Of a stretch of DNA of 38,054 nt, positions 2-35,831 are shown one piece after another. The position numbers and the translations under genes were made by a program. The notes under the pieces were generated by a model that saw nothing but the letters and a program-made list of their open reading frames with translations, was not told the origin of the DNA and made no database searches. Positions within the stretch are counted from its first letter, which is position 1. Each line of letters opens with the position of its first letter. The stretch lies in sequence record SRR22947725_1700; one strand, given 5' to 3'.

Positions 2-2257
2 CTGAATCCACTTTGTGGTGAGCCCGTTCATTTTCATGCAGAGGTCAGGCCCATCTTGATGGAACATTGTGCTGAATGCCATGGAGGGGTGAAAAAGGCC
101 TCTGGCTTCAGTGTCTTGTCCAGAGAATCCATGCTTCAGGACAGCGATTCGGGAAGCCCTGGATTTATCACGGGAAATGCTGAAAAAAGTTCACTGATAC
201 AGCGCTTGCGAACCAGAGATCTCGATGAACGTATGCCACCCGAAGGTCATGATCCCCTGAGTGCCGCGCAAGTTGAGGTCCTTGTCAGGTGGATTGATGA
301 GGGAGCCTCCTGGCCGCAGCACTGGGCTTTGACTCCGATCAATAAGGTGGATGTCCCCAAGGGTGTTCATCCCGTTGATCACTTTGTGAGTCAAGGTCTC
401 GATTCGGAAGGGCTGGCTTTTTCACCCAGAGCAGAACCCTCGATTCTGGCAAGGCGCCTGTTTCTGGACTTGACGGGCTTGCTGCCGAGTTCAGATGTGG
501 TGAACGGGTTCGTTGCTGATCCCTCTGAGCGTAATTACGAGGGACTTGTAGATCAATTACTGGCATCCCCCCACTTTGGGGAACGATGGGGCAGGCACTG
601 GTTGGATGAGGCACGGTATGCAGATTCATTGGGTTACGAAAAAGACAGCGTCAAAAAGGACGCCTGGCGCTACCGCGACTGGGTGGTGGATGCATTGAAT
701 GCGGATATGTCTTTTGAGAATTTCAGTCGGTATCAACTGGCCGGTGACTTGATGCAGCAAACTGAACCGGGTGCTTTGATTGCAACCAAATTACATCTGC
801 AAACCCAGTTCAATCTTGAGGGGGGGATTGATGCGGAGGAGGATCGAGTCAAGCGTGTCGTTGATCGAGTGAACATGTTTAGCTCGACCTGGCTGGGTTT
901 GACGATGGCGTGCAGTCAATGCCATGACCATCCTTACGACCCCGTAAGCCAGCGGGAGTATTATTCACTTTACGCTTTTTTCAATAATATGGATATGGAT
1001 GCTTCCTTCCTGGGGGCTGGACCCGAGAATGAGGAAACCTTATTGAAGGAACGAGCAGGCATTGCTGAGAAGCTTGAGCAAATGCTCGTGCGCCAGATTT
1101 CGAATAAAAATTTAAACAACCAGACAGTAGGCCTGTTGGGTGGATTGTTTAATTTTGACAACGACAAGGGGCTGACAAGGCATATGCGCGAGCGTGCTGA
1201 AAAACGTCGTGAGACTTACGTTTTGACTCGAGGAGACTTTCTTCGTCCAGATATACAGCAGGGTCTAGTTGTGCCCGATACACCGGGACTTTTTCCTTCG
1301 ATGGGAGATCGCGGGCAATTGCAAGATCGTGCGGATCTGGTTGATTGGCTTTTCACGGACACCCACCCCATCACAGCACGAGTGGCTGTCAACAAAGTCT
1401 GGATGCGCTTATTTGGAACCCCCCTGGTCCATACAGTGCAGGATTTTGGTTCTCGGGGAGAGCAATCGACACATCCTTTGCTTCTTGATTGGATGGCGGG
1501 ATGGTGGCAGACCGATGCTGGCTGGAGTTTGAAGCGCTTGATTAAATGGATTGTCATGTCTGACACCTATCAACAATCATCCAACCATCGGCTGGAGTTG
1601 AAACGAGTAGATCCCAATAATCGATTGCTGGCCCGACAGAATCGTTTTCGGGTGGAAGCTGAAATTATTCGAGACATCAGTTTGCAGACGGCGGGTTTAT
1701 TGAACTTGGATATCGGTGGTCCTGCCGTTTTTCCACCGATACCTGATTCGGTGCTTAATCAAAGTTTCACTAAATACGGAGGGAATTCGAAAGGACGGGA
1801 TCGATATCGGCGAGGTATTTACACTTTCTTTCGCCGAACTGCCATAGACCCGAACATGATGATCTTTGATTGTCCGGATGCTTCAGCATCCAAAGCCATG
1901 CGAGATCGTTCCAATAATGCGTTGCAGGCCATGACTACCTTGAATAACGAGGTGTTTCTGGAGAGTGCTCAAAGCTGGTCTTTTGAATTGCTTCAGACCT
2001 TACCCAACGCAACGGATACCATCAGATTGAATCATGCCTTCAAACTTGCCTTGAGCCGTGAGCCTTCTCCTGATGAAAAAGCTCAGTTAATCCGAATGCT
2101 TGGGGATGCACGGGTTGCGTTTGAATTACACGAAGAACAGGCGCTTGAATACCTGGGCTCGTATGGATCAAAAGCAATCATTCCAGGTGAGCAGGCTGCC
2201 TGGATGACGGTGCTTCGATTAATATTGAATCTGGATGAATTTTTTACACGTGAATAA
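2..2257 (+). CDS. PSCyt1 (planctomycete cytochrome c) + DUF1549 (PSCyt2) + DUF1553 (PSD1) domain protein, 5'-truncated by the window edge
   Basis: The frame is open from base 2 (LNPLCGEPVHFHAEVRPILMEHCAECH). It has CAECH with a downstream MPP, then HFGERWGRHWLDEARYADS, a second CxxCH (CSQCHDH), TARVAVNKVW, and a C-terminal LNLDEFFTRE typical of DUF1553 proteins. Confidence 0.9.
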   Translation: MNPLCGEPVHFHAEVRPILMEHCAECHGGVKKASGFSVLSRESMLQDSDSGSPGFITGNAEKSSLIQRLRTRDLDERMPPEGHDPLSAAQVEVLVRWIDEGASWPQHWALTPINKVDVPKGVHPVDHFVSQGLDSEGLAFSPRAEPSILARRLFLDLTGLLPSSDVVNGFVADPSERNYEGLVDQLLASPHFGERWGRHWLDEARYADSLGYEKDSVKKDAWRYRDWVVDALNADMSFENFSRYQLAGDLMQQTEPGALIATKLHLQTQFNLEGGIDAEEDRVKRVVDRVNMFSSTWLGLTMACSQCHDHPYDPVSQREYYSLYAFFNNMDMDASFLGAGPENEETLLKERAGIAEKLEQMLVRQISNKNLNNQTVGLLGGLFNFDNDKGLTRHMRERAEKRRETYVLTRGDFLRPDIQQGLVVPDTPGLFPSMGDRGQLQDRADLVDWLFTDTHPITARVAVNKVWMRLFGTPLVHTVQDFGSRGEQSTHPLLLDWMAGWWQTDAGWSLKRLIKWIVMSDTYQQSSNHRLELKRVDPNNRLLARQNRFRVEAEIIRDISLQTAGLLNLDIGGPAVFPPIPDSVLNQSFTKYGGNSKGRDRYRRGIYTFFRRTAIDPNMMIFDCPDASASKAMRDRSNNALQAMTTLNNEVFLESAQSWSFELLQTLPNATDTIRLNHAFKLALSREPSPDEKAQLIRMLGDARVAFELHEEQALEYLGSYGSKAIIPGEQAAWMTVLRLILNLDEFFTRE

Positions 2258-8483: not shown

Positions 8484-9485
8484 CTAAAGCTTTATGGGCC
8501 TGCCTTCTTTGAACGATTGTTCCGCCTTGTCGCACAGGATATGGCTCATGATCACATCAGATTCACCAATGGGTAAGGGTTTCCCTGTGCGGATGCAATG
8601 ATGAAAAACTTTCAATTCTTCGACGTAGGCCTCTCGGTAACGGGTTGGGAAGGAGTGCTCAATGGGCGGCCTGTTGATACCTGAGTGGTTGGAAAGGACG
8701 GTTGATCTGGGAGATCTATTTTCAGCCTGAATCATCCCTTGACCGCCGAAGGCCTCAATGCGTTGATCATACCCATAGGATGCGAAGCGGTTCACATCAA
8801 TACTTGCCAATAAACCGCTCTCGTATTTAAGCGACACGAGGACGTTGTCGAGGTCTTTCAAATCCCGGATATCGTCCACAAAGTTACTTCCTATCGCATA
8901 CACTTCTATGGGGTTCTCATGCGTGATGAAACGCAACATGTCAAAATCATGAACAATACAATCATGAAAAATGCTGTGGGACGTCCGGATGTAATCCATT
9001 GAGGGAAGAGGGGAATCTCTGGAAGTGAGACGCATTAATTGAGGGGAACCGATGGCGCCAGCCTGAACTTGACTGGCCAAGTCGGCAAAACTCGGGTCAA
9101 ATCTGCGGTTGAACCCAACAAACAGGCCCTTGCCTGCTTTTTGTGATGTGCTGAAGCATTCCCTGATTTCATTCAAACCGTTGCCAAGCGGTTTTTCGGT
9201 GAAAACGGCTTTGCCTGCATTCAATGATGCAATGATCTGTTGATAATGTTCGCCTGTAGGGGTCGCTACAATGACAGCCTCGATGGAGTCATCCTCAAGC
9301 GCTGCATCCATTTGGGTGGAACTCGCGCAATTAAAGTCACTACCAATACACGCAGCTTGTTCTGGATCTACATCCACGACATGTGCAAGTTCAATTTGAG
9401 GTAAAGTCCGAAGGCTTTGTAAGTGGAATTGGCCGGCCCTGCCCAGACCGATGAGGGCGATGCGGAATGGTTTATCTTGATCCAT
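8484..9485 (-). CDS. iolG: Gfo/Idh/MocA oxidoreductase, myo-inositol 2-dehydrogenase-like
   Basis: RIALIGLGRAG Rossmann motif, FTEKP, GFNRRFD, HDFD and YGYDQRIE. The likely start is MDQDKP at 9485, which avoids overlap with the porin gene. The substrate is inferred. Confidence 0.75.
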   Translation of the reverse strand: MDQDKPFRIALIGLGRAGQFHLQSLRTLPQIELAHVVDVDPEQAACIGSDFNCASSTQMDAALEDDSIEAVIVATPTGEHYQQIIASLNAGKAVFTEKPLGNGLNEIRECFSTSQKAGKGLFVGFNRRFDPSFADLASQVQAGAIGSPQLMRLTSRDSPLPSMDYIRTSHSIFHDCIVHDFDMLRFITHENPIEVYAIGSNFVDDIRDLKDLDNVLVSLKYESGLLASIDVNRFASYGYDQRIEAFGGQGMIQAENRSPRSTVLSNHSGINRPPIEHSFPTRYREAYVEELKVFHHCIRTGKPLPIGESDVIMSHILCDKAEQSFKEGRPIKL

Positions 9486-9507
9486 TGATTTGTTTGATCT
9501 GATTAAA

Positions 9508-11910
9508 TTATTGAAAAACTTTTGTCCAGGTGATGAAAATACCGTGAGCATCATAATCGAGATAACCATTACTTAAGTCATCTCGGTATCGGTAGTAGGC
9601 ATATTGAACTCCGAGTGTATCACGTTCCGAAAGCTGCTTGTGCACTTCAAACTGCCAGGCATGCTGACTGAATTCCGATCCCATGGGCAATCCCAAGGGC
9701 AAGGATTGCCCATAGTCAGCATGGCTGAATGTATAGTTGGCCATCAATCGGGTTGATTCATCATATAAAAATGTCCATGAGGAAAACAACGTGTAGAGAT
9801 CACCTGCGTAAGGTGCGATGGTATCGTTGTCATTGATGCCGGAAACAATCCGCGAGTCGGTGTAACTTGCCGATCCCATCCAGAACCACCTGACAGCAGG
9901 AGTCAGTGTAGTGGTGAAACGATAGGTGTGACTATCAAAATCACCTGCCAGCAGACTGCCAGCAGGGTAAGTCACGCCATTCAGATTCAAGGTCCCAATC
10001 GTGGTTCTGTAATCGGATTGTTCGCCTTCATAGGCAAGGGACGTTTTTAGCCAGCGAGCGGGTTTCCATGTCGTCTTCAGTCCCCAGTTCTGACCTTCCG
10101 TTTCGCGCTCAAGTATAGCTGCCGGATACCCGTTTCCGGGCTGTGGTCCACGATCTGTATCCAGCAGGTTGTTAAAATCGTGATGACGTCGCCTGTATCC
10201 ATAGGTAGGGTTGAAACTCCATTGGTTCAAGGGCGAAAAAGTAGTTCCTAACTCCACGTTTGCGTGCCGCCCCTTGGCATCCGTGTCTCGCATGAAATCC
10301 TCGCGAGAATCAAAGCTGTCATCCAGCAGCGAGTTCTCCGTCTGGCCAATGGATTCCTGCTGAATCCTGACGTCTGTGTAGAGAATCGTATTTGCGATGC
10401 CTGTGTGCCGTAATCCAAAGTTTTCTTCGATTTGAAAACGGTCAACATTGCTGCCCAAGGTGGTGGGAGTGCCAAAGAAGGTCGTGTCACCGGTTCCTTT
10501 GCGCCGAGTCCATTCGGTTTGAATGCCTGCATAACCAGTTGTATGATGCGACGGTTCCAGAAGACTGTTGAGATTCATGATGTGGGATTCACTGCTCAAC
10601 TGGATCCCTCTTGTCGAGAAGGGCATGCCTGCTCCTGCCGGATTGCTGGGATCGAAGTTTCCCAGAGCAAGATTGGCATCTCCGTCAAGATGTGAGTAAT
10701 AGTAGCCACCGCTTGCCAGCCACCATGGTTTGAGTTTTTTTTCCACTGTGAGTGCATTGGAACCCTGAAAATGGTCGTAGTCATCTTCCTGTGTCGACAC
10801 AAAGCCGGGAAGCAGGTCCCCGTCGCTGATGAAATCTCCCGTTTCAAGTGTGTGGGTTTGGCTGTAGAATTCACCACGAAAATCATCCTGGATGCGGAAT
10901 CCGTTCCATTCATGCTCCAGCCCAAGCGTGATGATATGTGTTTCCTGATCGATACGTTTCCAGGCTGGGAAGATACTTCGACCGTTAAAGGCTGCATCAA
11001 AGGCAGGTCCCCATTGCAGCATGGATTTGCTGCCGTTGCGTGATCTGTATTCGTAACCAACAGTCAAGCTGGGCAAATCAGGTCGATTTAATCCGAATTC
11101 AAACCAAACATTGGAAAGATCCAGATGAAGATCACGATTCAACGCATATGGACCGAGGTTGAAACTGGGAGAATAACCACCGTGAGGGTCGTCGTATGTT
11201 CTGGCTTGATCCAGTCCAAAACGGAAAAACCCAAGATCTCGCTTTTGAATTTCGGCTTCGACGTTGTATCTGTCATTGGGGGCCGTTATTCTGCCATCAC
11301 CTGAAAAGGAAGTACCACCTTCGAGCGTTTGTTTCCATTCGAAATTCTGAATTCCGCCATTGACTCCATCGCGCATCCAGTAGTGCTCGCGAAAGGCATT
11401 TTTGTTGCCGTCGACTGCAATGAACCGTAATTGAGGTGCTACCTTGAAATAAAATGATTCCTCTGAGATATCTTCAAAAGGCAATCCCTGATCGATCCAC
11501 GCCCTTAATAACCCTATTTCTTCGTTAGTGAGTTTATCTCCTTTGCCAATGGGAGGCATTTCGTAGTCTTCCTCCAGATGAGCCACAAATTGAATCAATG
11601 TGCTTTCAGCGCTATTGCCGATTTCAATGTTGGATCCATAGTCGCCCTCTTTGAGTGCCTCTGCACGACTTGTCAGACGATAATCTCCCTCGATGTTTTC
11701 CTGGCCGTGACATTGAAAGCACGATTCCCTGAGGATAGGCAGGATATCCGCATTAAAGTCAACGTTCCTTGCAGTTGGTGGAGGGAGTGGATCGTTTTGG
11801 CCGAGTAATATAACGAAACTCTTTGCCATAGCCACCAGCAAAAAAAAACGAATGCAGGTTCCTGCAATGTAATGGAGGGATTTCTTTGGAGTGATAGCAG
11901 TCATACGCAT
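9508..11910 (-). CDS. MtrB/PioB-like outer-membrane beta-barrel with a fused N-terminal PSCyt1 monoheme cytochrome c domain
   Basis: A signal-like leader is followed by VDFNADILPIL..CFQCH...EMPP...LLRAWIDQG (PSCyt1), then DGNKNAFREHYW.RDG resembling the MtrB/PioB N-terminus. About 650 aa of alternating aromatic beta-strands end in HGIFITWTKVFQ. The gene lies directly downstream of a multiheme cytochrome. Start is 11910 or 11904. Confidence 0.75.
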   Translation of the reverse strand: MRMTAITPKKSLHYIAGTCIRFFLLVAMAKSFVILLGQNDPLPPPTARNVDFNADILPILRESCFQCHGQENIEGDYRLTSRAEALKEGDYGSNIEIGNSAESTLIQFVAHLEEDYEMPPIGKGDKLTNEEIGLLRAWIDQGLPFEDISEESFYFKVAPQLRFIAVDGNKNAFREHYWMRDGVNGGIQNFEWKQTLEGGTSFSGDGRITAPNDRYNVEAEIQKRDLGFFRFGLDQARTYDDPHGGYSPSFNLGPYALNRDLHLDLSNVWFEFGLNRPDLPSLTVGYEYRSRNGSKSMLQWGPAFDAAFNGRSIFPAWKRIDQETHIITLGLEHEWNGFRIQDDFRGEFYSQTHTLETGDFISDGDLLPGFVSTQEDDYDHFQGSNALTVEKKLKPWWLASGGYYYSHLDGDANLALGNFDPSNPAGAGMPFSTRGIQLSSESHIMNLNSLLEPSHHTTGYAGIQTEWTRRKGTGDTTFFGTPTTLGSNVDRFQIEENFGLRHTGIANTILYTDVRIQQESIGQTENSLLDDSFDSREDFMRDTDAKGRHANVELGTTFSPLNQWSFNPTYGYRRRHHDFNNLLDTDRGPQPGNGYPAAILERETEGQNWGLKTTWKPARWLKTSLAYEGEQSDYRTTIGTLNLNGVTYPAGSLLAGDFDSHTYRFTTTLTPAVRWFWMGSASYTDSRIVSGINDNDTIAPYAGDLYTLFSSWTFLYDESTRLMANYTFSHADYGQSLPLGLPMGSEFSQHAWQFEVHKQLSERDTLGVQYAYYRYRDDLSNGYLDYDAHGIFITWTKVFQ

Positions 11911-11921
11911 TCTTATCTTGA

Positions 11922-12722
11922 TTAGAATCGCATTTTGGGATCCACCATGGAGCCGTGGACTTGCGTGTGACAGCCCGCAGTCCAACAACTGCCAGCCTGC
12001 ATACTGAAACTATGGGGTGCTTTCCCTATGAAAATGTCTCCTGATCCCGGGAATTGAATTTGAGAATGACATTTGAGACAGAGATTCGAATCGCGTTGGA
12101 TCAGCATTTTGGAATTCACAGAGCCGTGTGGGTCATGGCATTCGGTACAACCTTCCCTCATGGCCTCATGCTCGAACACAAATGTGCGGGCCTGTTCTTG
12201 ATGACACTCTGCGCAGGATTGATTCAATCGGGCAAACGCAAGCCCTCCCGATGGCTTGCTCATGTCGCGACCATGTGGATCATGGCAGTCCACACAGTTC
12301 ATTAAGTCTTCGAGTACGGGGTGGTGGTTGGGGAGACTGAACTTGGCGTGGATTTCCTGATGACATTCCATGCAAGAGGCTGAGTCATCCCCGGGATTGT
12401 GAATAAAGATCCCTTTCCCTCCACCTGCCTTGATGTGAAGGCTTCCGGGGCCATGACACGATTCACAACCGGATGAACCGATAGATCCTTGATCATCCAT
12501 ATGAAATCTGGCATGCGGACTGGAGGGGAAAACATCGACTATCGTAGTATGACAATCAGAGCACGCATCGTTTCCAGCAAAGCTTGCCCCTTCAATTTCA
12601 GGGGGACGAACAATGGCGACTTTGGTGGTGGTGCCACAAGAAGTGCTTCCCAGACTAATCCAAAAAGCGGCGACTACAGTGATGAGTCCTCCGCATATAG
12701 AGTGCAATTTCTTTTGGCTCAT
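11922..12722 (-). CDS. MtrA/DmsE-like multiheme cytochrome c (7 CxxCH + 1 CX4CH), possible lipoprotein
   Basis: Heme motifs CSDCH, CESCHGPGS, CMECH, CVDCHDPHG, CAECH, CTECHDPHGS, CLKCH and CWTAGCHTQVHGS. It also has DmsE-type linkers (PNHHPV, FVFEH) and a hydrophobic leader ending STSC. Confidence 0.88.
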   Translation of the reverse strand: MSQKKLHSICGGLITVVAAFWISLGSTSCGTTTKVAIVRPPEIEGASFAGNDACSDCHTTIVDVFPSSPHARFHMDDQGSIGSSGCESCHGPGSLHIKAGGGKGIFIHNPGDDSASCMECHQEIHAKFSLPNHHPVLEDLMNCVDCHDPHGRDMSKPSGGLAFARLNQSCAECHQEQARTFVFEHEAMREGCTECHDPHGSVNSKMLIQRDSNLCLKCHSQIQFPGSGDIFIGKAPHSFSMQAGSCWTAGCHTQVHGSMVDPKMRF

Positions 12723-12819
12723 GAGTTAGATTCAGAACGAACGTTACGCAACCTACTTATCCTGCATGTATTCTGCAACCATTTAGCAGCCTGGCTGATG
12801 ATGTGTCAGTAAAGAAAGC

Positions 12820-14301
12820 TTAGTCCTTTTTCCTGAAGAGTCGGCTCAGCGTGGGAAGCATAAATATCACCAAGAGGACAGTAACCATGGTAAGACAAAA
12901 AGGACGGGTCAGAAAGGGCATCCAGTCACCCTCAGTTTTGATCAAGCCCGTTCGGAGGTTTTTTTCCACCATAGGCCCAAGGATGAGTCCCAGAATGAGC
13001 GGAGCCAAGGGGATCGCCAGAAGCTCGAGTCCAAATCCGATCAACCCGAACAGAGCCATGACATACACATCAAACATGCTGTTTTGGAGTGAGTAGGCAC
13101 CCACTACTGAAAACACCACGACAGCGGTGAGTACCCAGTGCCGAGGGAGTTGAAGGAGTTTGTCGAATGTTTTGATTCCGATCCAACCAGCTGGGAGCAA
13201 TAAGATTTGCGTGATAAAGGCGATTGCAAAAATTGACTGAACCTGTGATCCACTTTGTTCAAAGATCATGGGGCCGGGTTTGATGTCGTAAACCATCAAC
13301 GCTCCCAGCACGATGGCTGTCACGGCATCTCCTGGAATGCCGAAGACCAGTGCAGGGATCCATGCACCGCCAACCGCCGCGTTATTGGCACTTGTCGGCG
13401 CAATCACGCCTTCATCGCTTCCTGTACCGAACTCTTCTGGAGATTTGGAAGTTTTTTGAGCAAGTCCATAAGCTCCCCATGCGGCAATATCCGCGCCGGC
13501 TCCAGGGAGGGCCCCGATCACCGTTCCCACCAAAGCGGATTGCCCGATCAATCGTTTTCTCCCCGTCAGATTTTTCAATATACTTTTGAATGGTATTCTG
13601 GCGCTCTTTGTGGATTTCAAATGATCTTGGCTGGACTTTGAGATGGATGGTTGCCACAGATTTCGAAGCACTTCAGATAAACCGAATAATCCGATCATGA
13701 CGGGGATGAACTGGACTCCATCCATGAGTTCATTTTTACCATATGTGAATCGTTGTGCTCCGCTGACAATGTCAAGTCCAACAGTGGAGATGAGCATTCC
13801 CAAACTTGCCGCCAGGATGCCATTGAGTGTGTTTCCTGCGCTGACCAAGGCACTCAGGCTGAGACCGAATATGGCAAGCCAGAAGTATTCAAAAGAACTG
13901 AACTTCAAAGCGAACTTGGCTAATTGTGGTGCAAGAAATATCATCAGAAGTACTCCGATCATACCGCCCATGCAACTGCAGCAAAGATTCAAGTAAAGTG
14001 CTTGCATGCCTTTGCCCTTGCGTGCCATCTGATGTCCGTCCAGTGTGGCTGCCGCAGATGCCGGGGTTCCTGGGATCCTCAGGTAAGTAGCGGGGATATC
14101 ACCGGCGAAAATAGCGGTAAAACTGACTCCAATGATCATCGCTAAACCCGCATCGGCAGGCAGGTAGTAGCTCAAAGGAATGATCAGGGCCACGGCCATG
14201 GTTGCCGTCAGGCCCGGAGTGGCACCGACAAAAATGCCAAATACCATTCCCAGTAGCCAGGGAATCAATGTGCCTGGCTGAAATAGCTCGATCCAGTTCA
14301 T
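12820..14301 (-). CDS. tctA: Tripartite tricarboxylate transporter large permease subunit
   Basis: Highly hydrophobic, with VGATPGL, IPGTPASAAATLDGH, GALPGAG, SANNA and GIPGD motifs of TctA. Confidence 0.9.
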   Translation of the reverse strand: MNWIELFQPGTLIPWLLGMVFGIFVGATPGLTATMAVALIIPLSYYLPADAGLAMIIGVSFTAIFAGDIPATYLRIPGTPASAAATLDGHQMARKGKGMQALYLNLCCSCMGGMIGVLLMIFLAPQLAKFALKFSSFEYFWLAIFGLSLSALVSAGNTLNGILAASLGMLISTVGLDIVSGAQRFTYGKNELMDGVQFIPVMIGLFGLSEVLRNLWQPSISKSSQDHLKSTKSARIPFKSILKNLTGRKRLIGQSALVGTVIGALPGAGADIAAWGAYGLAQKTSKSPEEFGTGSDEGVIAPTSANNAAVGGAWIPALVFGIPGDAVTAIVLGALMVYDIKPGPMIFEQSGSQVQSIFAIAFITQILLLPAGWIGIKTFDKLLQLPRHWVLTAVVVFSVVGAYSLQNSMFDVYVMALFGLIGFGLELLAIPLAPLILGLILGPMVEKNLRTGLIKTEGDWMPFLTRPFCLTMVTVLLVIFMLPTLSRLFRKKD

Positions 14302-20011: not shown

Positions 20012-21859
20012 GTGAAAGGCATTCGAGCCATCATACATTCATTAGTCCATTCCTGGCATTTGTTCGTGCGCAGGCATTGGCAGGGCTTTCTCGGCTGGAG
20101 AGAGCGTTTTCGTTTTACGGAAGAGGCCTTGCATCTCCTGATTGCGGGCGGAATTGGGATTATTGGAGGCGTGGTGAATGTCGTCTTCGTGAAACTTATT
20201 GTCGGGTGTCAAGATCTTGTCTGGGCAAAGGGAAATTCTACTTCATTAACTCCATTTCAGGGAACGGAATGGGAGCGTCTATTGATTCCAGTGGCAGGGG
20301 GCTTGATCGCTGGTTTGTTATTGTATCTCGGACTTAAATGGTCTGCGAAAAAGGGGAGTAACAATTTACTTGAAGCGGTTTCGATGGGAGACGGTAAATT
20401 GCCTTTCAGAACCGCAGTTACTCAGGCTTTTTCTTCCATGGTAAGTATTGTTTCTGGAGCTACTATTGGTCGAGAGGGTTCCATTACGCAGTTTACGAGC
20501 ATGCTTGCTTCTAAATGGGGAGCGCTGGCGCGCTGGCACCCTTATCGCTTGCGGTTAATGGTTGCTTGTGGTGCGGCCTCTGGAATGGCTGCAGCTTACA
20601 ACGCACCGATCGCAGGGGCCGTATTTGCTGCGCACATTGTGCTCGGTAATTTCTCCATGCATTTGTTCGCGCCCTTGATTTTTTCCTCAGTGGTTTCTTC
20701 CATGGTCTCCAGAAGTTTTTTTGGAATGGCACCTCTTTACAGAACTTCCCTGGAAATGGACCTTACTTTGTTTCAATTACCCTGGTTTCTGGTGCTGGGA
20801 GTCTTGTGTGGATTAATGGGAGGTTTGTTTCTGAAATCAATGCTGTGGGTTCGGGGTGTCTTCCAAAGATTTTCAATCCCAATGCCTTTCAAACTGGCAC
20901 TCGGAGGTCTGGCAATCGGCGTGTTGGCCTTCCGTTTTCCGCAAGTACTTGGTAATGGTTATTCAGGCGTGAATCTTATCATGGCTAATCAATTGAATCT
21001 CGCAGCAGTGGTGGCCTTGTTTTTGTTGAGATGGTTGGCCACGATCCTTGCGGTTGGCTCCGGGGCCTTTGGGGGCGTGATGACCCCGGTTTTGTTTCTT
21101 GGAGCGGCTCTTGGGGGAGTGTTTGGTCTTTACGGCATGCAGGAACAGTGGCATCCCGACATACCGGTGGCTGTTTTTGCTTTGGTTGGTATGAGCAGCA
21201 TGCTGGCCGCGACCACTCACAGTCCGCTACTGGCGATGATCATGGTGTTTGAAATTTCGCTGAACTACAGTTTGATGCCTGCATTAATGATTTCCTCCGC
21301 GATTGCGACGCTTGTTGCGCGGCAAGTGCATCGGACCAATATCTACAGTGAAACCCTCTACGCCAAAGGACTGGATGCTTCCTGGGAATCGGACCGGTTC
21401 GGCGAGGCCTCGCGGCAACGCGTTGGAGACCTCATGCGACACCCGGTGCCACCCGTGCGAGACAACGATTTCTTTGCGGATATTGCAGATCGGTTCATTA
21501 CCAGCTCCTATCACTTCCTTCCTGTGGTGGATCAGCGCATGCGGTTGCTGGGCGTGGTTGCCCTCAGCGATCTCAAGGAGTATCTGCAGATGGGGGAACA
21601 ACTGAAAAGCGTCATTGCCATCGATATCATGCGCCCCGCTCCCAAATGCCTGACACCCGGCCAGCGATTGGACGAAGCCCTGTCGGTTTTGCTGGGAGCT
21701 GAAATGCGGAACGTCCCAGTGGTAAATAACGGCAAAGACAAAAAACTCATCGGTGCTGTGAATCGCTCTGAAGCACTCGGGCAACTCGCCGAAGCAATGT
21801 CTTCTCCCAGCCTGAAATCCGGCACAGGACGTAGCGAATTAAACAATCAAAAAGTATGA
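20012..21859 (+). CDS. ClcB-like CLC chloride channel protein with C-terminal CBS pair
   Basis: Many transmembrane segments, with IGREGS, ACGAASGMAAAYNAP and GGVMTP motifs. The tail is a CBS pair (VGDLM...LPVVD...DIM...VPVV). Confidence 0.92.
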   Translation: MKGIRAIIHSLVHSWHLFVRRHWQGFLGWRERFRFTEEALHLLIAGGIGIIGGVVNVVFVKLIVGCQDLVWAKGNSTSLTPFQGTEWERLLIPVAGGLIAGLLLYLGLKWSAKKGSNNLLEAVSMGDGKLPFRTAVTQAFSSMVSIVSGATIGREGSITQFTSMLASKWGALARWHPYRLRLMVACGAASGMAAAYNAPIAGAVFAAHIVLGNFSMHLFAPLIFSSVVSSMVSRSFFGMAPLYRTSLEMDLTLFQLPWFLVLGVLCGLMGGLFLKSMLWVRGVFQRFSIPMPFKLALGGLAIGVLAFRFPQVLGNGYSGVNLIMANQLNLAAVVALFLLRWLATILAVGSGAFGGVMTPVLFLGAALGGVFGLYGMQEQWHPDIPVAVFALVGMSSMLAATTHSPLLAMIMVFEISLNYSLMPALMISSAIATLVARQVHRTNIYSETLYAKGLDASWESDRFGEASRQRVGDLMRHPVPPVRDNDFFADIADRFITSSYHFLPVVDQRMRLLGVVALSDLKEYLQMGEQLKSVIAIDIMRPAPKCLTPGQRLDEALSVLLGAEMRNVPVVNNGKDKKLIGAVNRSEALGQLAEAMSSPSLKSGTGRSELNNQKV

Positions 21860-24800
21860 GACTCCTTTACAAACAAGTAAACCAATTCGGAAACGCACGT
21901 ATCATGGTCGTGATTGCTGTGGGAATGTTGTTTTCCTCGATGGACAAATTCAGCGCGGCGGAACCTGTTGCCAGCTCCGAGCAATTGCCGCGGATACAAG
22001 CAACCGAAGTGGCGGATGTCATGTCTGCTTTCGAAGTACGTGAAGGGTTTACGTTGGACCTGGTGGCAGCGGAACCTTTGGTGGTTGATCCGGTGGCCAT
22101 GGATTTTGATGCATGGGGAAGGGCTTTTGTCGTCGAAATGCGGGGATACTCGGAGAGACGCCCCGAAAGGCTCGGCCGGATCAAGATGCTTGAAGATATA
22201 GATAAAGACGGATCCTTCGATCAAAGTATTGTTTATGCGGATGACCTGCCTTGGCCGACGGCAGTCATGTGTTACGATGGGGGAATCTTTGTAGGAGCGA
22301 CACCAGATATTTTTTATTTCAAAGACACCGACGGTGATGGCTCAGCCGATATCCGGCAATTGGTATTTACCGGTTTTGCTTCTGCAAGTGCACCTTATCG
22401 AGTGGACCAGTTGAACATGCAAGCCATGTTAAATTCGTTTCATTGGGGGCCGGATAACCGGATCCACGGAGCCACAGGCCCTGTCGGAGGCAAAGTCTAT
22501 TCACCGCTTCGTCCGGATCAGGCCTCTTTGAATTTGCGTGGGAAAGATTTTTCGTTCGACCCAAAAACGCTGGAATTACGCGCCGAAAGTGGAGGAGCAC
22601 AAAATGGGATGTCTTTTGATAGCCACGGAAGGAAATTCGTCTGCAGTAACAGTGATCACCTGCAATACATTGTTTATGATGAGGCATTCGCCGGCCTGAA
22701 TCCATTCATCAAACAGCAACCGGCAAGGATCAGCATCGCGGAAGATGGACCCGCCGCTCCGGTTTTTAGGATCAGTCCGGATGAACCTTGGAGAATCGTG
22801 CGTACGAAATGGCGTGTAGCAGGTGCCGTGCGTGGGCCTGTTGAAGGAGGCGGTACTCCTTCTGGGTATTTTACGGGGGCAACGGGAGCGACTTTGTATA
22901 CAGGAGACGCCTGGTCAAGGGAGTATGCAGATCATGCCTTTATTGCTGATTGCGGCAGTAATCTGATTCACAGAAAAGGAATATATCCGAAAGGTCATGT
23001 CGCGACCGCGCGGCGTCCAGCAGAGGAATCGGGCATAGAATTTGTGCGCTCCTCTGATACCTGGTTTCGCCCTGTTCAATTTTCCAACGCTCCGGATGGT
23101 AATCTTTATGTAATGGATATGTACCGAGAAGTCATTGAGCATCCATGGTCGTTACCCGACGGAATAAAGCAATTTCTTGATCTCAATAGCGGCAACAATC
23201 GGGGACGCATTTATCGTATTCGAACAATTGAAGGTAAAGCCAAACAACGGAAATTGCCTGGTGAAGCAAAGGCCATGGAGCTGGTGCAAATGCTTGGTCA
23301 TTCCAATCATTGGCACCGTGAAACCGCAAGGCGCTTGCTTGTTCAACGAAATATGATCCACTTACAGGATGCCGTGAGAGCATTATTGAAGGAGTCGGTT
23401 GACGTTTCTGCTCAAGTGAACGCAGTGCAGGTACTCCATGGTTTCGGGAATTTGACAGCTGATGATGTGGAGACGGTTTTTCGAAGTAAATCCAGCGCGG
23501 TTCATCTGGCCTTATTAAAACTGTTGGGCAACAGGGACGAATTGAGTCCATTTGATGTACCGTTTGAAAAATATATCTCTAAACTTATTCTTAATAATCA
23601 AACTAGGTTTCAAGCCACTTTATTACTGTCCAAATTTCCGTTTCATTCATCCAGACAATCTGAGTTTCTTTGGCGCGCCATGTCCCTCGAAAAAGAAGAC
23701 AAATACTGGATGCAATTTGCAGTGCTGAACGCGATGAATTCTTGTCGCTCCGATTTTTTGAATCACATGATCGCCAAAGGGGAAATCGGAGGTAATTTGT
23801 TCCATGATACGGGCGGATTCTATCAATTTTTTGGGGCATCAAGTGATAAGAAGGAAATGGCGCAGATATTTCGATTCGTTTTCGAAGCTCCCATTTCAGT
23901 GGATACTCTGGATGCCTTATCCTCGTTGAGTCATGGTATGCGTCAGAATGGGAAAGGCTGGTCAACGGTTCTAACCGATACAGAGCTGGCTCATGCTCGA
24001 GAAAGGTATTTAGTCTGGATCCAGAGTCAGGCTCTGGACGACCTCTCATCAGCAGGGAAAATCATCGGACTCATGGGTGAGATGATGAATGAAGATCTCA
24101 AACAGAGTTGGAAGACCATGCTTTCTGAGTCCGAGTGGGCCATCTTGCATTCTGAACTGCTGGCTTCCCTTGCCAATGTCTTTTCATTGAGTGATCTTGA
24201 CTGGGTATGCGAACAGTGGTCCTCCTGGAGTCCATCAGTTCGGCAAGTTGCTCTTGCTTTGATGATGTCGCGTGATGAATTGTTGCTTGCATACTTGAAA
24301 TCAGCTCAGGAAAAACCGGAGCTTATAAAAGATCTGACATTCTCTCAGAGAAGGAATCTTCAACATCATCGTTCGGATAAGGTTCAACAGTCAGCATCTC
24401 GACTCTGGGATCCCTCTACAGAAAATGTAACGAAGAAGTCTGTGGAGGATTTTGGAGAAGCGCTGTTACTTGAGGCTGACATGGATAATGGCCAACGAAT
24501 CTTCAACGAACGGTGTGCTTCCTGTCATCGTGGTAATGGAGAAGGGTTTGCTCTGGGCCCTGATCTTATTTCCATTAAAACATCCGGGAAGAACCGTATT
24601 CTGGACAGTATTCTATACCCAAACAGAGAAGTGCAACCGCAGTATATCTCATATGAGATAGAGACAACTGAAGGGGAAAGTGTCGTAGGCTTGATCGCTC
24701 AGGAATCTCGTTCGCTCATGGTCGTCAAACAGGCAGGTGGGATAACTCAAACGATACAACGGCAAAAAATTGCTTCTATCGATGGAACAGGAAATTCCAT

Positions 24801-24882
24801 CATGCCCTCAGGGCTATTGGAGGGAATGACAACTCAGGACGTAGGTGATTTGCTGGAGTACATCGTTCAACTGAAACGTTGA
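21856..24882 (+). CDS. PVC-type heme-binding protein (putative membrane-bound dehydrogenase propeller + helical repeats + C-terminal cytochrome c)
   Basis: LVAAEPLVVDPVAMDFD, DTDGDG, WFRPV..APDG.LY..DMYR, CASCH, GPDL and SIMPSGL. Confidence 0.9.
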   Translation: MRLLYKQVNQFGNARIMVVIAVGMLFSSMDKFSAAEPVASSEQLPRIQATEVADVMSAFEVREGFTLDLVAAEPLVVDPVAMDFDAWGRAFVVEMRGYSERRPERLGRIKMLEDIDKDGSFDQSIVYADDLPWPTAVMCYDGGIFVGATPDIFYFKDTDGDGSADIRQLVFTGFASASAPYRVDQLNMQAMLNSFHWGPDNRIHGATGPVGGKVYSPLRPDQASLNLRGKDFSFDPKTLELRAESGGAQNGMSFDSHGRKFVCSNSDHLQYIVYDEAFAGLNPFIKQQPARISIAEDGPAAPVFRISPDEPWRIVRTKWRVAGAVRGPVEGGGTPSGYFTGATGATLYTGDAWSREYADHAFIADCGSNLIHRKGIYPKGHVATARRPAEESGIEFVRSSDTWFRPVQFSNAPDGNLYVMDMYREVIEHPWSLPDGIKQFLDLNSGNNRGRIYRIRTIEGKAKQRKLPGEAKAMELVQMLGHSNHWHRETARRLLVQRNMIHLQDAVRALLKESVDVSAQVNAVQVLHGFGNLTADDVETVFRSKSSAVHLALLKLLGNRDELSPFDVPFEKYISKLILNNQTRFQATLLLSKFPFHSSRQSEFLWRAMSLEKEDKYWMQFAVLNAMNSCRSDFLNHMIAKGEIGGNLFHDTGGFYQFFGASSDKKEMAQIFRFVFEAPISVDTLDALSSLSHGMRQNGKGWSTVLTDTELAHARERYLVWIQSQALDDLSSAGKIIGLMGEMMNEDLKQSWKTMLSESEWAILHSELLASLANVFSLSDLDWVCEQWSSWSPSVRQVALALMMSRDELLLAYLKSAQEKPELIKDLTFSQRRNLQHHRSDKVQQSASRLWDPSTENVTKKSVEDFGEALLLEADMDNGQRIFNERCASCHRGNGEGFALGPDLISIKTSGKNRILDSILYPNREVQPQYISYEIETTEGESVVGLIAQESRSLMVVKQAGGITQTIQRQKIASIDGTGNSIMPSGLLEGMTTQDVGDLLEYIVQLKR

Positions 24883-35300: not shown

Positions 35301-35831
35301 GACTTCAGAGATATGATCTGGTTCATCCTGAATCCTCCAGAAGATCAAAGGCCCTTGACCGCTGCCTTGCGGCGTGAACTCGTGGGCGAAGCACCAGATA
35401 GTGTTCAACGCGATTACGAATCCATCAGTCTCTGGAACCCTGACTGGCAAGTTGAATCCTCAGAAAAGGGTAATGCTCCCTCTATTGAACCGGATTGGGA
35501 AGCTGCAAAAAACGTTTTGGTCACGCATCCTTTCTGGCATCAGCGTGGAGCTGCATTGCTGAGAAAAATAAATATACCTGCTCAGGGGAACACCTTCCTT
35601 CGGTTCAAGGTCGCCTCTGCGGCAGAAGGTCAATGGGTGCTGCGTGTGTTTGCGGACCTGAAGCTTGTTCAACGACATAGTGTTTCTCGTCAAAAAGGCG
35701 TATGGAACACGGTGGAAATCGACTTGACGCCATTTGCTGGAAAAGAAATTCCTATTCGCCTCGAAAATTATGCTTATGACATGAAGAACGACTTTGGATA
35801 CTGGGGGCCGATCAAGTTGATCACCAAGTAA
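32325..35831 (+). CDS. PVC-type heme-binding protein (dehydrogenase-like propeller + HEAT-like repeats + cytochrome c + extra C-terminal beta domain)
   Basis: Signal peptide, FAAEPDVVNPVAMDWDERG, two DxxxDGRAD-like repeats, GPDG...ADWYD, CLVCH, GPDLTG and SVMPEGL, followed by about 140 extra residues. Confidence 0.9.
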   Translation: MQSMDPQFNIRRVIGLLLVLSLCVAQAAGRQLTGGHAPASSVPIPPENAASTFTVPEGFEMRLFAAEPDVVNPVAMDWDERGRLYVLELFEYPLGAKRGEKPRDRIRILEDTDADGRADKSTLFADGLNLATGLLLGNGGVYVGQAPYLLFLEDTNGDDRADKRTTLLGGFGLEDRHELLNGFAWGPDGWLYMTQGVFTHSKVKDPEHPERPEVIMNAAVGRFHPDTKAFEVFADGASNQWHVDFDRFGNAFVSACVIDHLFHMAPGGLYTRQAGRPEHAYSYELLPSIVDHKHYRAAYCGISIYQGNQYPQSYQGRVLMGNIHENAVNMDRLERDGSSFKAHALDNFVESTDGWFRAVSEQIGPDGTVWIADWYDKYPCYQNANADPEGVDRQYGRIWRVAYVGDQPDKPLPSRPAVNMNLALKSSQDLIGLLAHSNVWHRETAQRLLNERKDNHTQKSLVKLMETGDSIESRLTALWTLHGAGLIDESILKKAEEDGHFAIRSWAARLTGERRSSDLQALARLQRLAEDRHPSVRNAVATALRQYSSGALTVNRPSRVNVSLSDLGPIFASLIQASAAEEDPLIPFMTWMALEPWMTEAHEVILSWLVSNGESTKPLSQKILYKTMRRLCDQADAGVMGAAAEALSDLLSGDRELLLSGLDGLIDGQKLTKTLPAGNGKALLVQLSKATDPSLRRRYWQLGSLWGDDATVEQLAGIISNPSTKKDELGLAIGLARQINHPEIINALLLRIESGAQSDMVNDAIEALGTHQDARVPDLLINLWPEFGMAQKQISTAVLVSRPTWLNAFLSAVESRKILPAEVPTSVIRSLANHRDDDIKARAQKSIGRFREPNASMDRLIDEKRKVVLEGEPDPVNGRQLTEMVCLVCHQLHGKGANVGPDLTGVGRSTLDALLANVINPNQLIGAGYENTVIETKDERSVSGRLVEETDSYVKLLAAGPREEVISKSDIQTRAITANSVMPEGLEQMEDKDFRDMIWFILNPPEDQRPLTAALRRELVGEAPDSVQRDYESISLWNPDWQVESSEKGNAPSIEPDWEAAKNVLVTHPFWHQRGAALLRKINIPAQGNTFLRFKVASAAEGQWVLRVFADLKLVQRHSVSRQKGVWNTVEIDLTPFAGKEIPIRLENYAYDMKNDFGYWGPIKLITK

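What the first reader, a model, noticed from the sequence alone, without database searches (positions are those of the whole stretch)
9508..12722. Unusual porin-cytochrome conduit: short MtrA-like cytochrome plus an MtrB-like barrel with its own fused cytochrome c
Seen: two co-oriented genes 11-17 bp apart, a multiheme DmsE/MtrA-like cytochrome and a ~800 aa beta-barrel. The barrel begins with a complete planctomycete-type monoheme domain (CFQCH at 11707-11721, downstream MPP). Established: MtrAB, MtoAB and PioAB are outer-membrane electron conduits whose barrels carry no heme and rely on separate shuttles (MtoD, PioC, STC); Cyc2 fuses one heme to a porin but has no MtrA partner. Inference: this is a hybrid design in which the periplasmic shuttle is tethered to the barrel N-terminus, giving up to 9 hemes across two proteins. 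I do not know of a characterised example of this architecture. It would give an apparently carbohydrate-degrading PVC bacterium an extracellular electron transfer route.
Basis: partly seen in the sequence, partly recalled or inferred. Interest (0 to 1): 0.88.

Follow-up and report, generated by a model that had tools for sequence, protein, structure and literature searches.

The report
Heme-fused porin-cytochrome electron conduit
Two adjacent genes encode an eight-heme relative of MtrA and a 26-strand MtrB-like outer-membrane barrel with its own cytochrome c domain, a conserved but biochemically untested Verrucomicrobiota version of the bacterial heme wire through the outer membrane.

Summary
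Window 11922-12722(-) encodes a 266-aa cytochrome with 7 CXXCH plus 1 CX4CH. It is homologous to MtrA (PDB 6r2q_A, E 1.5e-22). Eleven bases downstream, 9508-11910(-) encodes an 800-aa protein: a PSCyt1 monoheme domain (CFQCH, MPP) followed by a 26-strand barrel. The barrel's best solved fold match by far is MtrB (Z 22.2 against 14.2 for the next).

The fusion is not an assembly artefact. Of the 115 best-150 barrel relatives whose match reaches the barrel's start, 69 carry the heme extension, and they separate from unfused barrels at a single tree branch. The octaheme gene sits directly upstream in 52 of 52 testable fused loci and in 29 of 30 loci from an unbiased phylum sample. A complex model threads the cytochrome through the barrel (0.84 against a best control of 0.22), but a like complex is already solved.

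New here:
- Unfused relatives often carry NapC/NirT-type or other multiheme genes beside the pair; fused loci carry none (0 of 57) and often a cupredoxin instead (24 of 57).
- RNA-library contigs from three marine studies cover both genes.

The gene pair was in print by 2017, and a heme motif on such a porin was mentioned in 2026. This scan also found the architecture before on another genome. It is a new variant of a known kind, uncharacterised.

The parts
11922..12722 (-). Gene for the octaheme c-type cytochrome (P0001, 266 aa), an MtrA/DmsE-type homologue that is two hemes shorter than MtrA
   Evidence: ORF and translation. NCBIfam: GSU2203 decaheme 1.3e-47 (162.6 bits, cut-off 325) and DmsE TIGR03508 4e-42 (144.5 bits, cut-off 192.2). 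PDB: 6r2q_A at 1.5e-22.
12636..12722 (-). Signal peptide ending in the invariant Cys29 (probable lipobox, so a probable lipoprotein)
   Evidence: C29 is invariant in 29 of 29 homologues and directly follows the hydrophobic stretch; the consensus is L-x-S-C. Lipidation is inferred, not tested.
11967..12563 (-). Heme-binding region: CXXCH at C54, C86, C117, C143, C170, C192 and C215, plus CX4CH at C246-H252, with eight invariant further His (H70, 96, 134, 150, 185, 199, 237, 256) as candidate distal ligands
   Evidence: Invariant columns of alignment A2. The assignment as distal ligands is inferred.
11911..11921 (-). 11-base spacer between the two genes
   Evidence: Sequence. Contigs from RNA libraries and a DNA run bridge it (records 14, 22, 29, 5).
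9508..11910 (-). Gene for the heme-domain/barrel fusion protein (P0002, 800 aa including the signal peptide)
   Evidence: The 80 best rows match 59-100% of its length.
11461..11790 (-). Periplasmic class-I-like monoheme domain (PSCyt1, residues 41-150), with CFQCH at 11707-11721 and MPP at 11551-11559
   Evidence: Pfam PSCyt1 2.4e-13. C, C, H and M-P-P are invariant in 42 of 42. Domain model pLDDT 89.4. The nearest solved folds are the heme domain of hydrazine synthase alpha and c-554/c6-type cytochromes, all weak (E 0.012 or worse).
9511..11460 (-). 26-strand outer-membrane beta-barrel of MtrB fold (residues 151-800)
   Evidence: DSSP of the model shows 26 long strands. Foldseek top hit is 6r2q_B, E 2.6e-13, TMt 0.66. 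VIA-align gives Z 22.2, rmsd 3.8, 567 residues aligned, with the next chain at Z 14.2.
11840..11848 (-). T9 run inside the barrel's signal-peptide coding part; one base shorter in one RNA-library contig
   Evidence: table 4 (run X14 only; X16 and DNA run X12 show T9); in the shorter form only start codons 36-40 residues before C64 remain. It was not followed further.

Best explanation
The two genes encode an outer-membrane porin-cytochrome electron conduit of the MtrAB type, in a form specific to Verrucomicrobiota.

The eight-heme cytochrome is probably lipid-anchored by Cys29. It is threaded through the lumen of the 26-strand barrel and forms a heme wire across the outer membrane. The barrel's N-terminal His/Met-type monoheme domain hangs at the periplasmic mouth. 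It serves as the ninth heme and passes electrons between the wire and soluble periplasmic carriers. In MtoAB and PioAB that job is done by separate small carriers (MtoD, PioC).

What is shown: homology of the cytochrome to MtrA, the MtrB fold of the barrel, the conserved heme ligands, strict gene pairing, a single origin of the fusion (or a single loss), and presence in RNA libraries.

What is inferred: insertion of the cytochrome into the barrel (model only), lipidation, and the relay role of the fused heme.

The direction of flow is also inferred. I judge inward flow most likely, at about 45%: uptake of electrons from extracellular reduced iron or humics toward cytochrome c or cupredoxin and a terminal oxidase. 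The reasons are:
- The fused clade lacks the NapC/NirT quinol-dehydrogenase-type and extra multiheme genes that sit beside its unfused relatives.
- It carries a Met-ligated class-I-type heme.
- It is often flanked by a cupredoxin.
- The high-quality genomes that carry it have heme-copper oxidases.
For: Cytochrome:
- MtrA homology: 6r2q_A at E 1.5e-22.
- DmsE and GSU2203 family hits at 4e-42 and 1.3e-47.
- Eight heme motifs and eight further His are invariant in 29 of 29 homologues.

Barrel:
- 26 strands, pLDDT 85.4.
- MtrB is the top match by Foldseek (E 2.6e-13, TMt 0.66; next 3.9e-10, TMt 0.48) and by VIA-align (Z 22.2, rmsd 3.8, 567 aligned; next Z 14.2).

Gene pairing:
- The octaheme ORF lies directly upstream on the same strand in 52 of 56 fused loci. 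The other 4 start at a contig end.
- It does so in 29 of 30 loci found with a barrel-only profile in 401 sampled Verrucomicrobiota genomes.

Complex model: ipSAE 0.84 against a best of 3 controls of 0.22. That mark was reached by 51 of 78 solved complexes and 2 of 108 mismatched pairs. The runs agree in at least 54% of contacts and the partner's pLDDT is at least 66. Contacts lie on barrel residues 175-775 across the strands and on cytochrome residues 60-266.

Heme domain:
- PSCyt1 at 50.9 bits.
- C/C/H and MPP are invariant in 42 of 42.
- It is present in 43 of 44 full-length homologues and in all 69 representatives with an N-extension of 110 or more residues.
- Fused and unfused barrels separate at one branch with SH-like support 100, on barrel columns only.

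Wiring contrast:
- 0 of 57 fused loci (6-kb flanks) hold another ORF with 2 or more CXXCH.
- 15 of 26 non-fused loci (1.5-kb flanks) hold an ORF with 3 or more CXXCH. Seven are NapC/NirT-like, 2 are c554-like tetrahemes, and 6 are a further MHC.
- A relative of the cupredoxin-Ig ORF of L004 lies in 24 of 57 fused loci. PF00127 was confirmed in 9 of the 11 scanned.

Genomes carrying the fused form (G001, G352, G331, G037):
- Cytochrome c assembly genes in 4 of 4.
- Heme-copper oxidase in 3 of 4.
- NapC/NirT over the cut-off in 0 of 4.

Expression: RNA-library contigs from 3 studies cover both genes and bridge their junction.
Against: - Nothing here is biochemical. Heme attachment, membrane location and electron transfer are all untested.
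- The complex tool folded the chains without my alignments and without hemes. A like complex (MtrAB, 6R2Q) is solved, so the pass may reflect memory of that structure. It shows likeness, not binding.
- By sequence the barrel is not a Pfam MtrB_PioB member: no hit at E up to 1, 1 of 44 homologues at 1.2e-7, and no MtrB hit with the family profile against the PDB.
- The window has no cupredoxin, oxidase or other cytochrome gene next to the pair. The neighbours are a TctA transporter and a Gfo/Idh/MocA oxidoreductase.
- The nearest held genome, G001 (79% complete), shows no heme-copper oxidase.
- The argument for direction rests on gene neighbourhoods and on a recalled rule of thumb that His/Met class I hemes are high-potential. 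PccH, to which 6 of 44 homologues show a Pfam match, is recalled to be low-potential.
- RNA-library contigs do not prove transcription, because DNA can be present in such libraries (note).
- The scan used a peptide pattern that lies inside the heme domain. It could only find fused forms.
Confidence: 0.75

Rival explanations
1. Same conduit, opposite direction. It exports respiratory electrons to extracellular acceptors such as humic substances, Fe(III) or Mn(IV), as He et al. 2017 proposed for Verrucomicrobia porin-MHC clusters. The fused heme receives electrons from periplasmic carriers.
For: The homology and fold are those of MtrAB, which is best known from an Fe(III) reducer. He et al. 2017 (PMC5615132, section 12) and the 2026 preprint (passages) read such clusters this way. 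PMC13608581 (passages) links such loci in cultured Limisphaera to presumed iron reduction. The unfused sister clusters carry NapC/NirT-type genes, as CymA-MtrAB does.
Against: The fused clade is the one that lacks NapC/NirT and extra MHC genes: 0 of 57 loci and 0 of 4 genomes over the cut-off. A Met-ligated heme and a neighbouring cupredoxin fit high-potential partners better; this is an inference from recalled potentials. The window's sequence is held by marine water-column metagenomes, and the oxygen status of those samples is unknown to me.
Confidence: 0.3
2. It is a non-respiratory surface redox device. It might be an assimilatory ferric reductase that frees iron from ligands for uptake, or a sink that detoxifies extracellular oxidants, with no role in energy conservation.
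For: The host looks like a carbohydrate degrader: sulfatase, glucoamylase and 3-keto-disaccharide hydrolase genes lie in the window. The pair stands alone, without respiratory genes nearby. The organism occurs in marine metagenomes, where iron is scarce (iron scarcity is general knowledge).
Against: Nine hemes and a dedicated 26-strand barrel are a costly device. No iron-uptake genes are conserved beside it (clusters). The conserved cupredoxin neighbour has no obvious place in this reading.
Confidence: 0.1
3. It is not a conduit. The barrel is a solute porin or transporter that happens to carry a PSCyt1 domain, as many PVC proteins do, and the neighbouring cytochrome acts elsewhere in the periplasm.
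For: PSCyt1 is fused to many unrelated proteins in this phylum (rows P0083-P0122; window 56-2257). There is no Pfam MtrB_PioB match.
Against: The pairing with an MtrA homologue is strict: 52 of 52 testable loci and 29 of 30. MtrB stands 8 Z units above every other solved barrel. The complex model passes its controls. The model shows no plug domain.
Confidence: 0.04
4. The fusion is an assembly or gene-calling artefact that joins a cytochrome gene to a barrel gene.
For: None was found. Unitigs of several runs break near 11440-11469 (table 8), close to the domain boundary.
Against: All 69 representative proteins (clusters at 50% identity) with a long N-extension carry a CXXCH. The same holds for 48 of 49 loci; the one exception is cut off by a contig end. 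The fused forms are monophyletic. The unitig breaks overlap by 30 bases, and two variants (records 12 and 13) span them. I read that overlap as word length minus one, assuming 31-letter words, and take it for a strain bubble.
Confidence: 0.01

Closest known systems
MtrCAB of Shewanella (structure 6R2Q)
   Same: The periplasmic multiheme cytochrome is homologous to MtrA (E 1.5e-22). The barrel has 26 strands and MtrB is its best fold match (Z 22.2). The genes are adjacent in the order cytochrome then barrel. A model places the cytochrome in the lumen.
   Different: It has eight hemes, not ten, and the last motif is CX4CH. The cytochrome is probably a lipoprotein. No MtrC-like surface decaheme gene lies near it (0 of 57 loci with another multi-CXXCH ORF). 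The barrel carries a covalent-heme domain and shows no detectable sequence match to Pfam MtrB_PioB. That 6R2Q chain A is MtrA is recalled; the PDB table gives that chain an odd name.
MtoAB-MtoD and PioAB-PioC of Fe(II) oxidisers
   Same: They are two-component conduits without a surface cytochrome. They use a small high-potential periplasmic carrier at the inner end (PMC10654088, passages). The fused heme domain could fill that role.
   Different: In those systems the carrier is a separate gene product; here it is fused to the barrel. Those cytochromes are decahemes. CymA-type partners are absent from the genomes carrying the fused form. Iron oxidation by the present system is untested.
Verrucomicrobia porin-MHC clusters of He et al. 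2017 (mSphere, PMC5615132) and EET3/EET4 of a 2026 preprint (10.64898/2026.05.27.727921)
   Same: He et al. describe a porin with at least 20 transmembrane strands beside a periplasmic cytochrome with eight conserved heme sites, in Verrucomicrobia (section 12 read). My barrel-only profile finds such pairs in 30 of 401 sampled genomes of the phylum.
   Different: The text I could read does not mention a heme domain on the porin (He et al. section 12 and nine passages of the 2019 follow-up; the words 'fused' and 'monoheme' are absent from the preprint's main text). Those clusters often include an extracellular MHC, and the fused clade has none nearby. Whether their porins belong to my fused or unfused clade could not be checked, because supplements and figures were not available.
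Cyc2 / Cyc572 fused cytochrome-porins
   Same: They have an N-terminal single CXXCH followed by an outer-membrane barrel in one polypeptide (PMC10654088 and PMC6344600, passages).
   Different: The Cyc2 barrel is small, about 17 strands according to PMC10654088. Its heme is thought to sit in the barrel, and it has no MtrA partner. Here the barrel has 26 strands, a partner octaheme fills the lumen in the model, and the heme domain is a full 100-residue class-I-like fold outside the barrel. No sequence test against Cyc2 was made.
Geobacter OmaB-OmbB-OmcB porin-cytochrome complex
   Same: It has an octaheme periplasmic cytochrome plus a porin (PMC6344600, passage). The best NCBIfam hit of the cytochrome is a Geobacter-named family, GSU2203.
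   Different: The Geobacter complex includes a surface dodecaheme lipoprotein, and its porin carries no heme. The papers read describe its components as not homologous to Mtr, whereas this cytochrome is clearly an MtrA homologue.

Membership tests
DmsE/MtrA decaheme cytochromes (TIGR03508) | Score at or above the curated cut-off of the family model | tested here: not met
   144.5 bits against a cut-off of 192.2; E 4e-42. It is a homologue but not a member by NCBI's threshold.
DmsE/MtrA decaheme cytochromes (TIGR03508) | Ten CXXCH heme sites | tested here: not met
   7 CXXCH + 1 CX4CH = 8, invariant in 29 of 29.
DmsE/MtrA decaheme cytochromes (TIGR03508) | Sequence homology to structurally solved MtrA | tested here: met
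   6r2q_A at E 1.5e-22. Residues 115-258 align to chain residues 181-323, including the terminal HGS motif.
MtrB/PioB outer-membrane barrels (Pfam PF11854) | Match to the family HMM | tested here: not met
   No hit for P0002 at E up to 1. 1 of 44 homologues hits at 1.2e-7. There is no match in the nearest genome G001 and no MtrB hit by the family profile against PDB sequences.
MtrB/PioB outer-membrane barrels (Pfam PF11854) | 26-strand barrel wide enough to hold a multiheme cytochrome | tested here: met
   26 long strands in the model. 6r2q_B scores Z 22.2, rmsd 3.8, 567 of 649 residues aligned, with Foldseek TMt 0.66.
MtrB/PioB outer-membrane barrels (Pfam PF11854) | Encoded next to, and binding, an MtrA-type cytochrome | tested here: met
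   Adjacency holds in 52 of 52 testable loci and in 29 of 30. Binding is modelled only: 0.84 against a best control of 0.22, and possibly from memory of 6R2Q.
PSCyt1, Planctomycete cytochrome C domain (Pfam PF07635) | HMM match over the cut-off with CXXCH and the downstream MPP | tested here: met
   50.9 bits against a cut-off of 22 on residues 64-120. C64/C67/H68 and M118-P119-P120 are invariant in 42 of 42.
Verrucomicrobia porin-MHC cluster (He et al. 2017) | Porin with at least 20 strands adjacent to a periplasmic cytochrome with eight conserved heme sites, in Verrucomicrobia | tested here: met
   26 strands and eight conserved sites. Record titles of the related loci name Verrucomicrobiota for most. 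Identity with the authors' own genes could not be tested: no sequences from the paper were available, and supplements were closed.
Cyc2-type fused cytochrome-porin | Small barrel (about 16-17 strands) with an N-terminal heme and no partner cytochrome | tested here: not met
   The barrel has 26 strands and there is an obligatory partner gene. The strand number of Cyc2 is taken from PMC10654088 (passage). Sequence similarity to Cyc2 was not tested.
TonB-dependent receptors | 22-strand barrel with an N-terminal plug domain | tested here: not met
   The model has 26 strands, and the N-terminal domain is a helical cytochrome fold, not a plug. TBDR chains align at Z 13.8 or less with TM 0.48 or less, well below MtrB. 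There is no Pfam TonB_dep_Rec or Plug hit.

The most novel reading that the evidence does not exclude
The heme-fused clade is an electron-uptake conduit. In abundant marine, freshwater and soil Verrucomicrobiota otherwise regarded as plain sugar degraders, the octaheme wire takes electrons from extracellular Fe(II) or reduced humic matter. It hands them to the barrel-tethered His/Met heme, and from there to cupredoxin or cytochrome c and a heme-copper oxidase. The clade would have arisen once from a NapC/NirT-coupled outward-type ancestor, or the reverse, by swapping the inner partner. That would be a natural rewiring of an Mtr-type conduit between the quinol pool and the high-potential branch.
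Probability: 0.3. Interest if true: 0.8.

Novelty: new variant of a known kind. Interest (0 to 1): 0.6.

Why it matters
Porin-cytochrome conduits are the known route for electrons across the Gram-negative outer membrane. All solved or characterised ones have a heme-free barrel and free periplasmic shuttles. Here the first periplasmic relay is built into the barrel, which fixes the geometry of the hand-over. That makes the inner end of such a conduit directly testable: delete or swap residues 41-150. The fused and unfused sister clades differ in their neighbouring genes, with a cupredoxin on one side and NapC/NirT or extra multihemes on the other. This offers a natural experiment on what sets the direction and the partner of an Mtr-type wire. 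The family is widespread: 1184 representative proteins at E up to 0.001, found in marine, lake, soil and peat assemblies by record titles and run labels. If it is active, it adds extracellular redox chemistry to organisms counted as polysaccharide degraders in carbon budgets.

Tried and rejected
- Sequence links from the barrel to MtrB gave nothing: Pfam on P0002 at E up to 1; profile A1 against PDB sequences, which gave only three hits, all to the heme domain; and PF11854 in genome G001, where the 14 control genomes contain no true MtrB either.
- The window's own genome is not held. Genome-wide questions were put to the nearest genome G001 (79% complete, sharing 47% of the window's words) and to three other genomes carrying the fused form.
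- The complex model names no barrel residue below 175 among its confident contacts. The docking of the fused heme on the octaheme stays open, and this counts neither for nor against it.
- Foldseek of the heme domain alone found no solved structure at E up to 0.001. The best was hydrazine synthase alpha at E 0.012, followed by c-554/c6-type cytochromes. This is consistent with a class-I-like fold but weak.
- The promoter and terminator scan of 9200-13000 gave nothing above chance: 2 promoter-like sites against 4.4 expected and 5 terminator-like sites against 3.6 expected, none placed to inform operon structure.
- A literature search for 'Planctomycete cytochrome C' + porin + multiheme returned 0 papers. 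'Fused cytochrome-porin' papers concern Cyc2 only.
- No model coordinates are available in the script box, so heme-to-heme distances and the side of the membrane for each contact could not be measured.
- The TonB-receptor reading and the chimeric-assembly reading were considered and rejected (see rivals).
- Parts of the stretch without RNA-contig cover in X16 and X17 (table 2) say nothing.

Full report
**Observation.** On the minus strand, window 11922-12722 encodes a 266-aa protein (P0001). After an 11-base spacer, 9508-11910 encodes an 800-aa protein (P0002).
- P0001 has seven CXXCH motifs and one CX4CH.
- P0002 has CFQCH at residues 64-68 (11707-11721) and MPP at residues 118-120.
- Pfam places PSCyt1 on residues 64-120 of P0002 (50.9 bits, cut-off 22) and nothing on residues 150-800.
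- NCBIfam places P0001 near the GSU2203 and DmsE decaheme families (1.3e-47 and 4e-42), but below both curated cut-offs.

**The cytochrome.** Against PDB sequences the best match is chain A of 6R2Q, the Mtr complex, at E 1.5e-22. That this chain is MtrA is recalled, because the table gives it an odd molecule name. The family is very large and well conserved: 6924 of 8000 scored candidates reach E up to 0.001, with about 60% identity among the best rows. In an alignment of 29 members the following are invariant:
- all eight heme motifs;
- eight further histidines, which is the number needed for bis-His ligation of eight hemes (my inference);
- Cys29, directly after the hydrophobic signal segment (consensus L-x-S-C).

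I read Cys29 as a lipobox and the protein as a probable lipoprotein. This is not tested. Compared with MtrA the protein is two hemes shorter.

**The barrel.** AlphaFold2 with 44 homologues gave pLDDT 85.4 and pTM 0.75. The model has a helical domain at residues 50-140 followed by 26 long strands at 152-799, with short turns on one side and longer loops on the other.
- Foldseek against the PDB ranks MtrB (6r2q_B) first: E 2.6e-13, TM 0.55/0.66. TonB-dependent receptors follow at TM 0.48 or less.
- An independent all-against-representatives alignment gives MtrB Z 22.2 (rmsd 3.8 A, 567 residues, model 151-799 on chain 49-695), with the next chain at Z 14.2.
- By sequence the barrel is not a Pfam MtrB_PioB member. 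The window protein has no hit, 1 of 44 homologues has one at 1.2e-7, and a family profile against PDB sequences finds no MtrB.

So the barrel works like and looks like MtrB, but family membership by the curated model is not met.

**The heme domain.** Modelled alone with 42 homologues, it reaches pLDDT 89.4.
- Its nearest solved folds are the C-terminal heme domain of hydrazine synthase alpha and small class-I cytochromes (c-554, c6). All are weak, at E 0.012 or worse.
- The profile search also touched hydrazine synthase, PccH and FoxE.
- Cys, Cys, His and Met-Pro-Pro are invariant in 42 of 42, which suggests His/Met ligation (inference).
- Both ends of an even-stranded barrel face the periplasm (established topology of outer-membrane barrels), so the domain should hang at the periplasmic mouth.

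**Is the fusion real and conserved?**
- The word-indexed search returned 80 rows that match 59-100% of P0002. Of these, 79 carry PF07635.
- The genome scan gave 56 loci with a barrel relative. Its seed pattern lies inside the heme domain, so it could only find fused forms.
- For an unbiased test I built a barrel-only alignment (A3) and searched 1.84 billion representatives: 1184 hits at E up to 0.001.
- Among the best 150, 115 begin at the start of the profile. Of these, 69 have an N-extension of 110 or more residues, and all 69 carry a CXXCH (68 have one, 1 has two). Another 41 have a short N-terminus; 39 of them are plain signal peptides without heme and 2 are truncated fused forms. The remaining 5 are other cases.
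- A FastTree tree of 96 barrels used barrel columns only (59 fused including the window, 37 unfused; rows with fewer than 600 barrel residues were dropped). It separates the two forms at a single branch with SH-like support 100. Because the root is unknown, this means either one gain or one loss.
- Independent assemblies agree. Contigs of a DNA run and of three RNA-library runs lie on the stretch at 95-100% identity.

**Gene pairing.**
- In the 56 fused loci an MtrA-like ORF lies directly upstream on the same strand in 52. The other four (L016, L018, L019, L033) begin at a contig end.
- In an even sample of 401 Verrucomicrobiota genomes the barrel-only profile matched 30 genomes (22 of 185 genera). 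In 29 of the 30 best loci the octaheme ORF is adjacent; L103 is fragmentary.
- 4 of those 30 are fused (L083, L084, L085, L087).

**Complex model.** With chains cut to 759 + 237 residues, the tool (ESMFold2; my alignments were not used and no hemes were included) gave ipSAE 0.84, 0.83 and 0.84 against controls of 0.00, 0.22 and 0.00.
- The mark was reached by 51 of 78 solved complexes and by 2 of 108 mismatched pairs.
- The runs agree in at least 54% of their contacts, and the partner's pLDDT is at least 66.
- Confident contacts lie on alternate residues of nearly all strands between 175 and 775, and on cytochrome residues 60-266. I read this as the cytochrome lying in the lumen.
- Because MtrAB is solved, the pass may come from memory and shows likeness only.

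**Neighbourhoods: the new point.**
- In 57 fused loci with 6-kb flanks, no other ORF has even two CXXCH motifs (0 of 57).
- In the 26 non-fused loci, with only 1.5-kb flanks, 15 hold another ORF with three or more CXXCH. Seven are NapC/NirT-like ORFs downstream of the barrel (PF03264 confirmed in 3 of 3 scanned). Two are c554-like tetrahemes. Six are a further MHC upstream.
- None of these three kinds has a relative in L001-L080.
- Instead, 24 of 57 fused loci hold a relative of a secreted cupredoxin-Ig protein. In most it lies just after the barrel or just before the cytochrome gene. PF00127 was confirmed in 9 of 11 scanned, and most have type-I signal peptides.
- The four held genomes carrying the fused form have cytochrome c assembly genes in 4 of 4 and cupredoxins in 4 of 4. 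They have heme-copper oxidases in 3 of 4; the exception, G001, is 79% complete. None has NapC/NirT over the cut-off.
- The window itself has no such partner beside the pair. Its neighbours are a TctA transporter, a Gfo/Idh/MocA oxidoreductase and carbohydrate-active genes.

**Mechanism.** I commit to an outer-membrane porin-cytochrome conduit in which the fused heme is the periplasmic relay (0.75). On direction I lean to inward flow, at about 45%, against about 30% for outward flow. The reason is that the fused clade has exchanged quinol-dehydrogenase-type and multiheme partners for a Met-ligated heme and, often, a cupredoxin. This rests on neighbourhood statistics and on recalled redox tendencies, not on measurement.

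**Presence and expression.** The 3.2-kb stretch is held almost whole by 13 DNA runs labelled marine metagenome, from five studies, and in part by 6 RNA-library runs. Contigs of RNA libraries from three studies cover both genes and bridge their junction: X14 11549-12376, X16 11600-11995 and X17 11862-12064. Contigs cannot show a single transcript, and DNA carry-over is not excluded.

**Literature.**
- He et al. 2017 (PMC5615132; section 12 read in full) reported Verrucomicrobia porins with at least 20 strands clustered with periplasmic eight-heme cytochromes, sometimes with an extracellular MHC, and proposed electron transfer to humics. A heme on the porin is not mentioned in that section.
- The 2019 follow-up (PMC6344600, passages) adds nothing on this point.
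- A 2026 preprint (10.64898/2026.05.27.727921, passages) defines Verrucomicrobiota clusters EET3 and EET4 and reports their transcription in peat. The words 'fused' and 'monoheme' do not occur in its main text.
- My searches found no paper that characterises the fusion.
- Supplements and figures were closed and may hold more.
I re-derived it independently here.

**Verdict.** It is best filed as a new, uncharacterised variant of the known porin-cytochrome kind. The contrast between the fused and unfused clades is the most useful new lead.

Noticed in passing
window 11840-11848 (-): A T9 run lies in the barrel's signal-peptide coding part. It is one base shorter in one RNA-library contig (X14 record 14), but not in X16 or in DNA run X12. 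In the shorter form only TTG, GTG and ATG starts 36-40 residues before C64 remain. It could be a homopolymer error, a strain difference or a slippage site.
   Followed up: partly
L004:8375-9667 and relatives in 24 of 57 fused loci; G331 contig C21 just after the barrel: A secreted protein with a plastocyanin/azurin-type copper domain followed by Big_7 Ig domains is a frequent third gene beside the fused-type pair. In some loci it also carries InlB B-repeats or a glucose/sorbosone dehydrogenase domain. Whether it sits in the periplasm or on the cell surface is open. It is not beside the pair in this window.
   Followed up: partly
L093, L095, L097, L100, L101, L102, L112 (downstream of unfused barrels): The unfused sister clusters carry a NapC/NirT-type cytochrome gene right after the barrel. 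This gives a CymA-MtrA-MtrB-like three-gene set in one family of the phylum (f11, 19 of 35 sampled genomes with a barrel match).
   Followed up: partly
window 56-2257 (+): A second PSCyt1 domain occurs in the window, here in the usual PVC architecture PSCyt1-PSCyt2(DUF1549)-PSD1(DUF1553). The heme domain fused to the barrel belongs to a domain family that is widely reused in this phylum.
   Followed up: no
window 21856-24882 (+) and 32325-35831 (+): Two large DUF7133 proteins are present. The first has a C-terminal cytochrome c match and the second has HEAT repeats and one CXXCH. They may be further periplasmic heme proteins that could feed or drain a c-type electron pool.
   Followed up: no
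window 8484-9569 (-) against 9508-9510: The longest frame of the downstream Gfo/Idh/MocA gene overlaps the barrel's last 62 bases. The Pfam NAD-binding domain starts at residue 35 of that frame, so a later start (the Met at residue 29) is likelier and the overlap is probably not real.
   Followed up: no
P0265 (914 aa) and P0020, P0028, P0034, P0040 (899-994 aa): Some fused homologues have a longer N-terminal extension. P0265 has two CXXCH motifs, and the others carry extra PccH or Cytochrome_CBB3 Pfam matches. A two-heme version of the tethered domain therefore exists.
   Followed up: no
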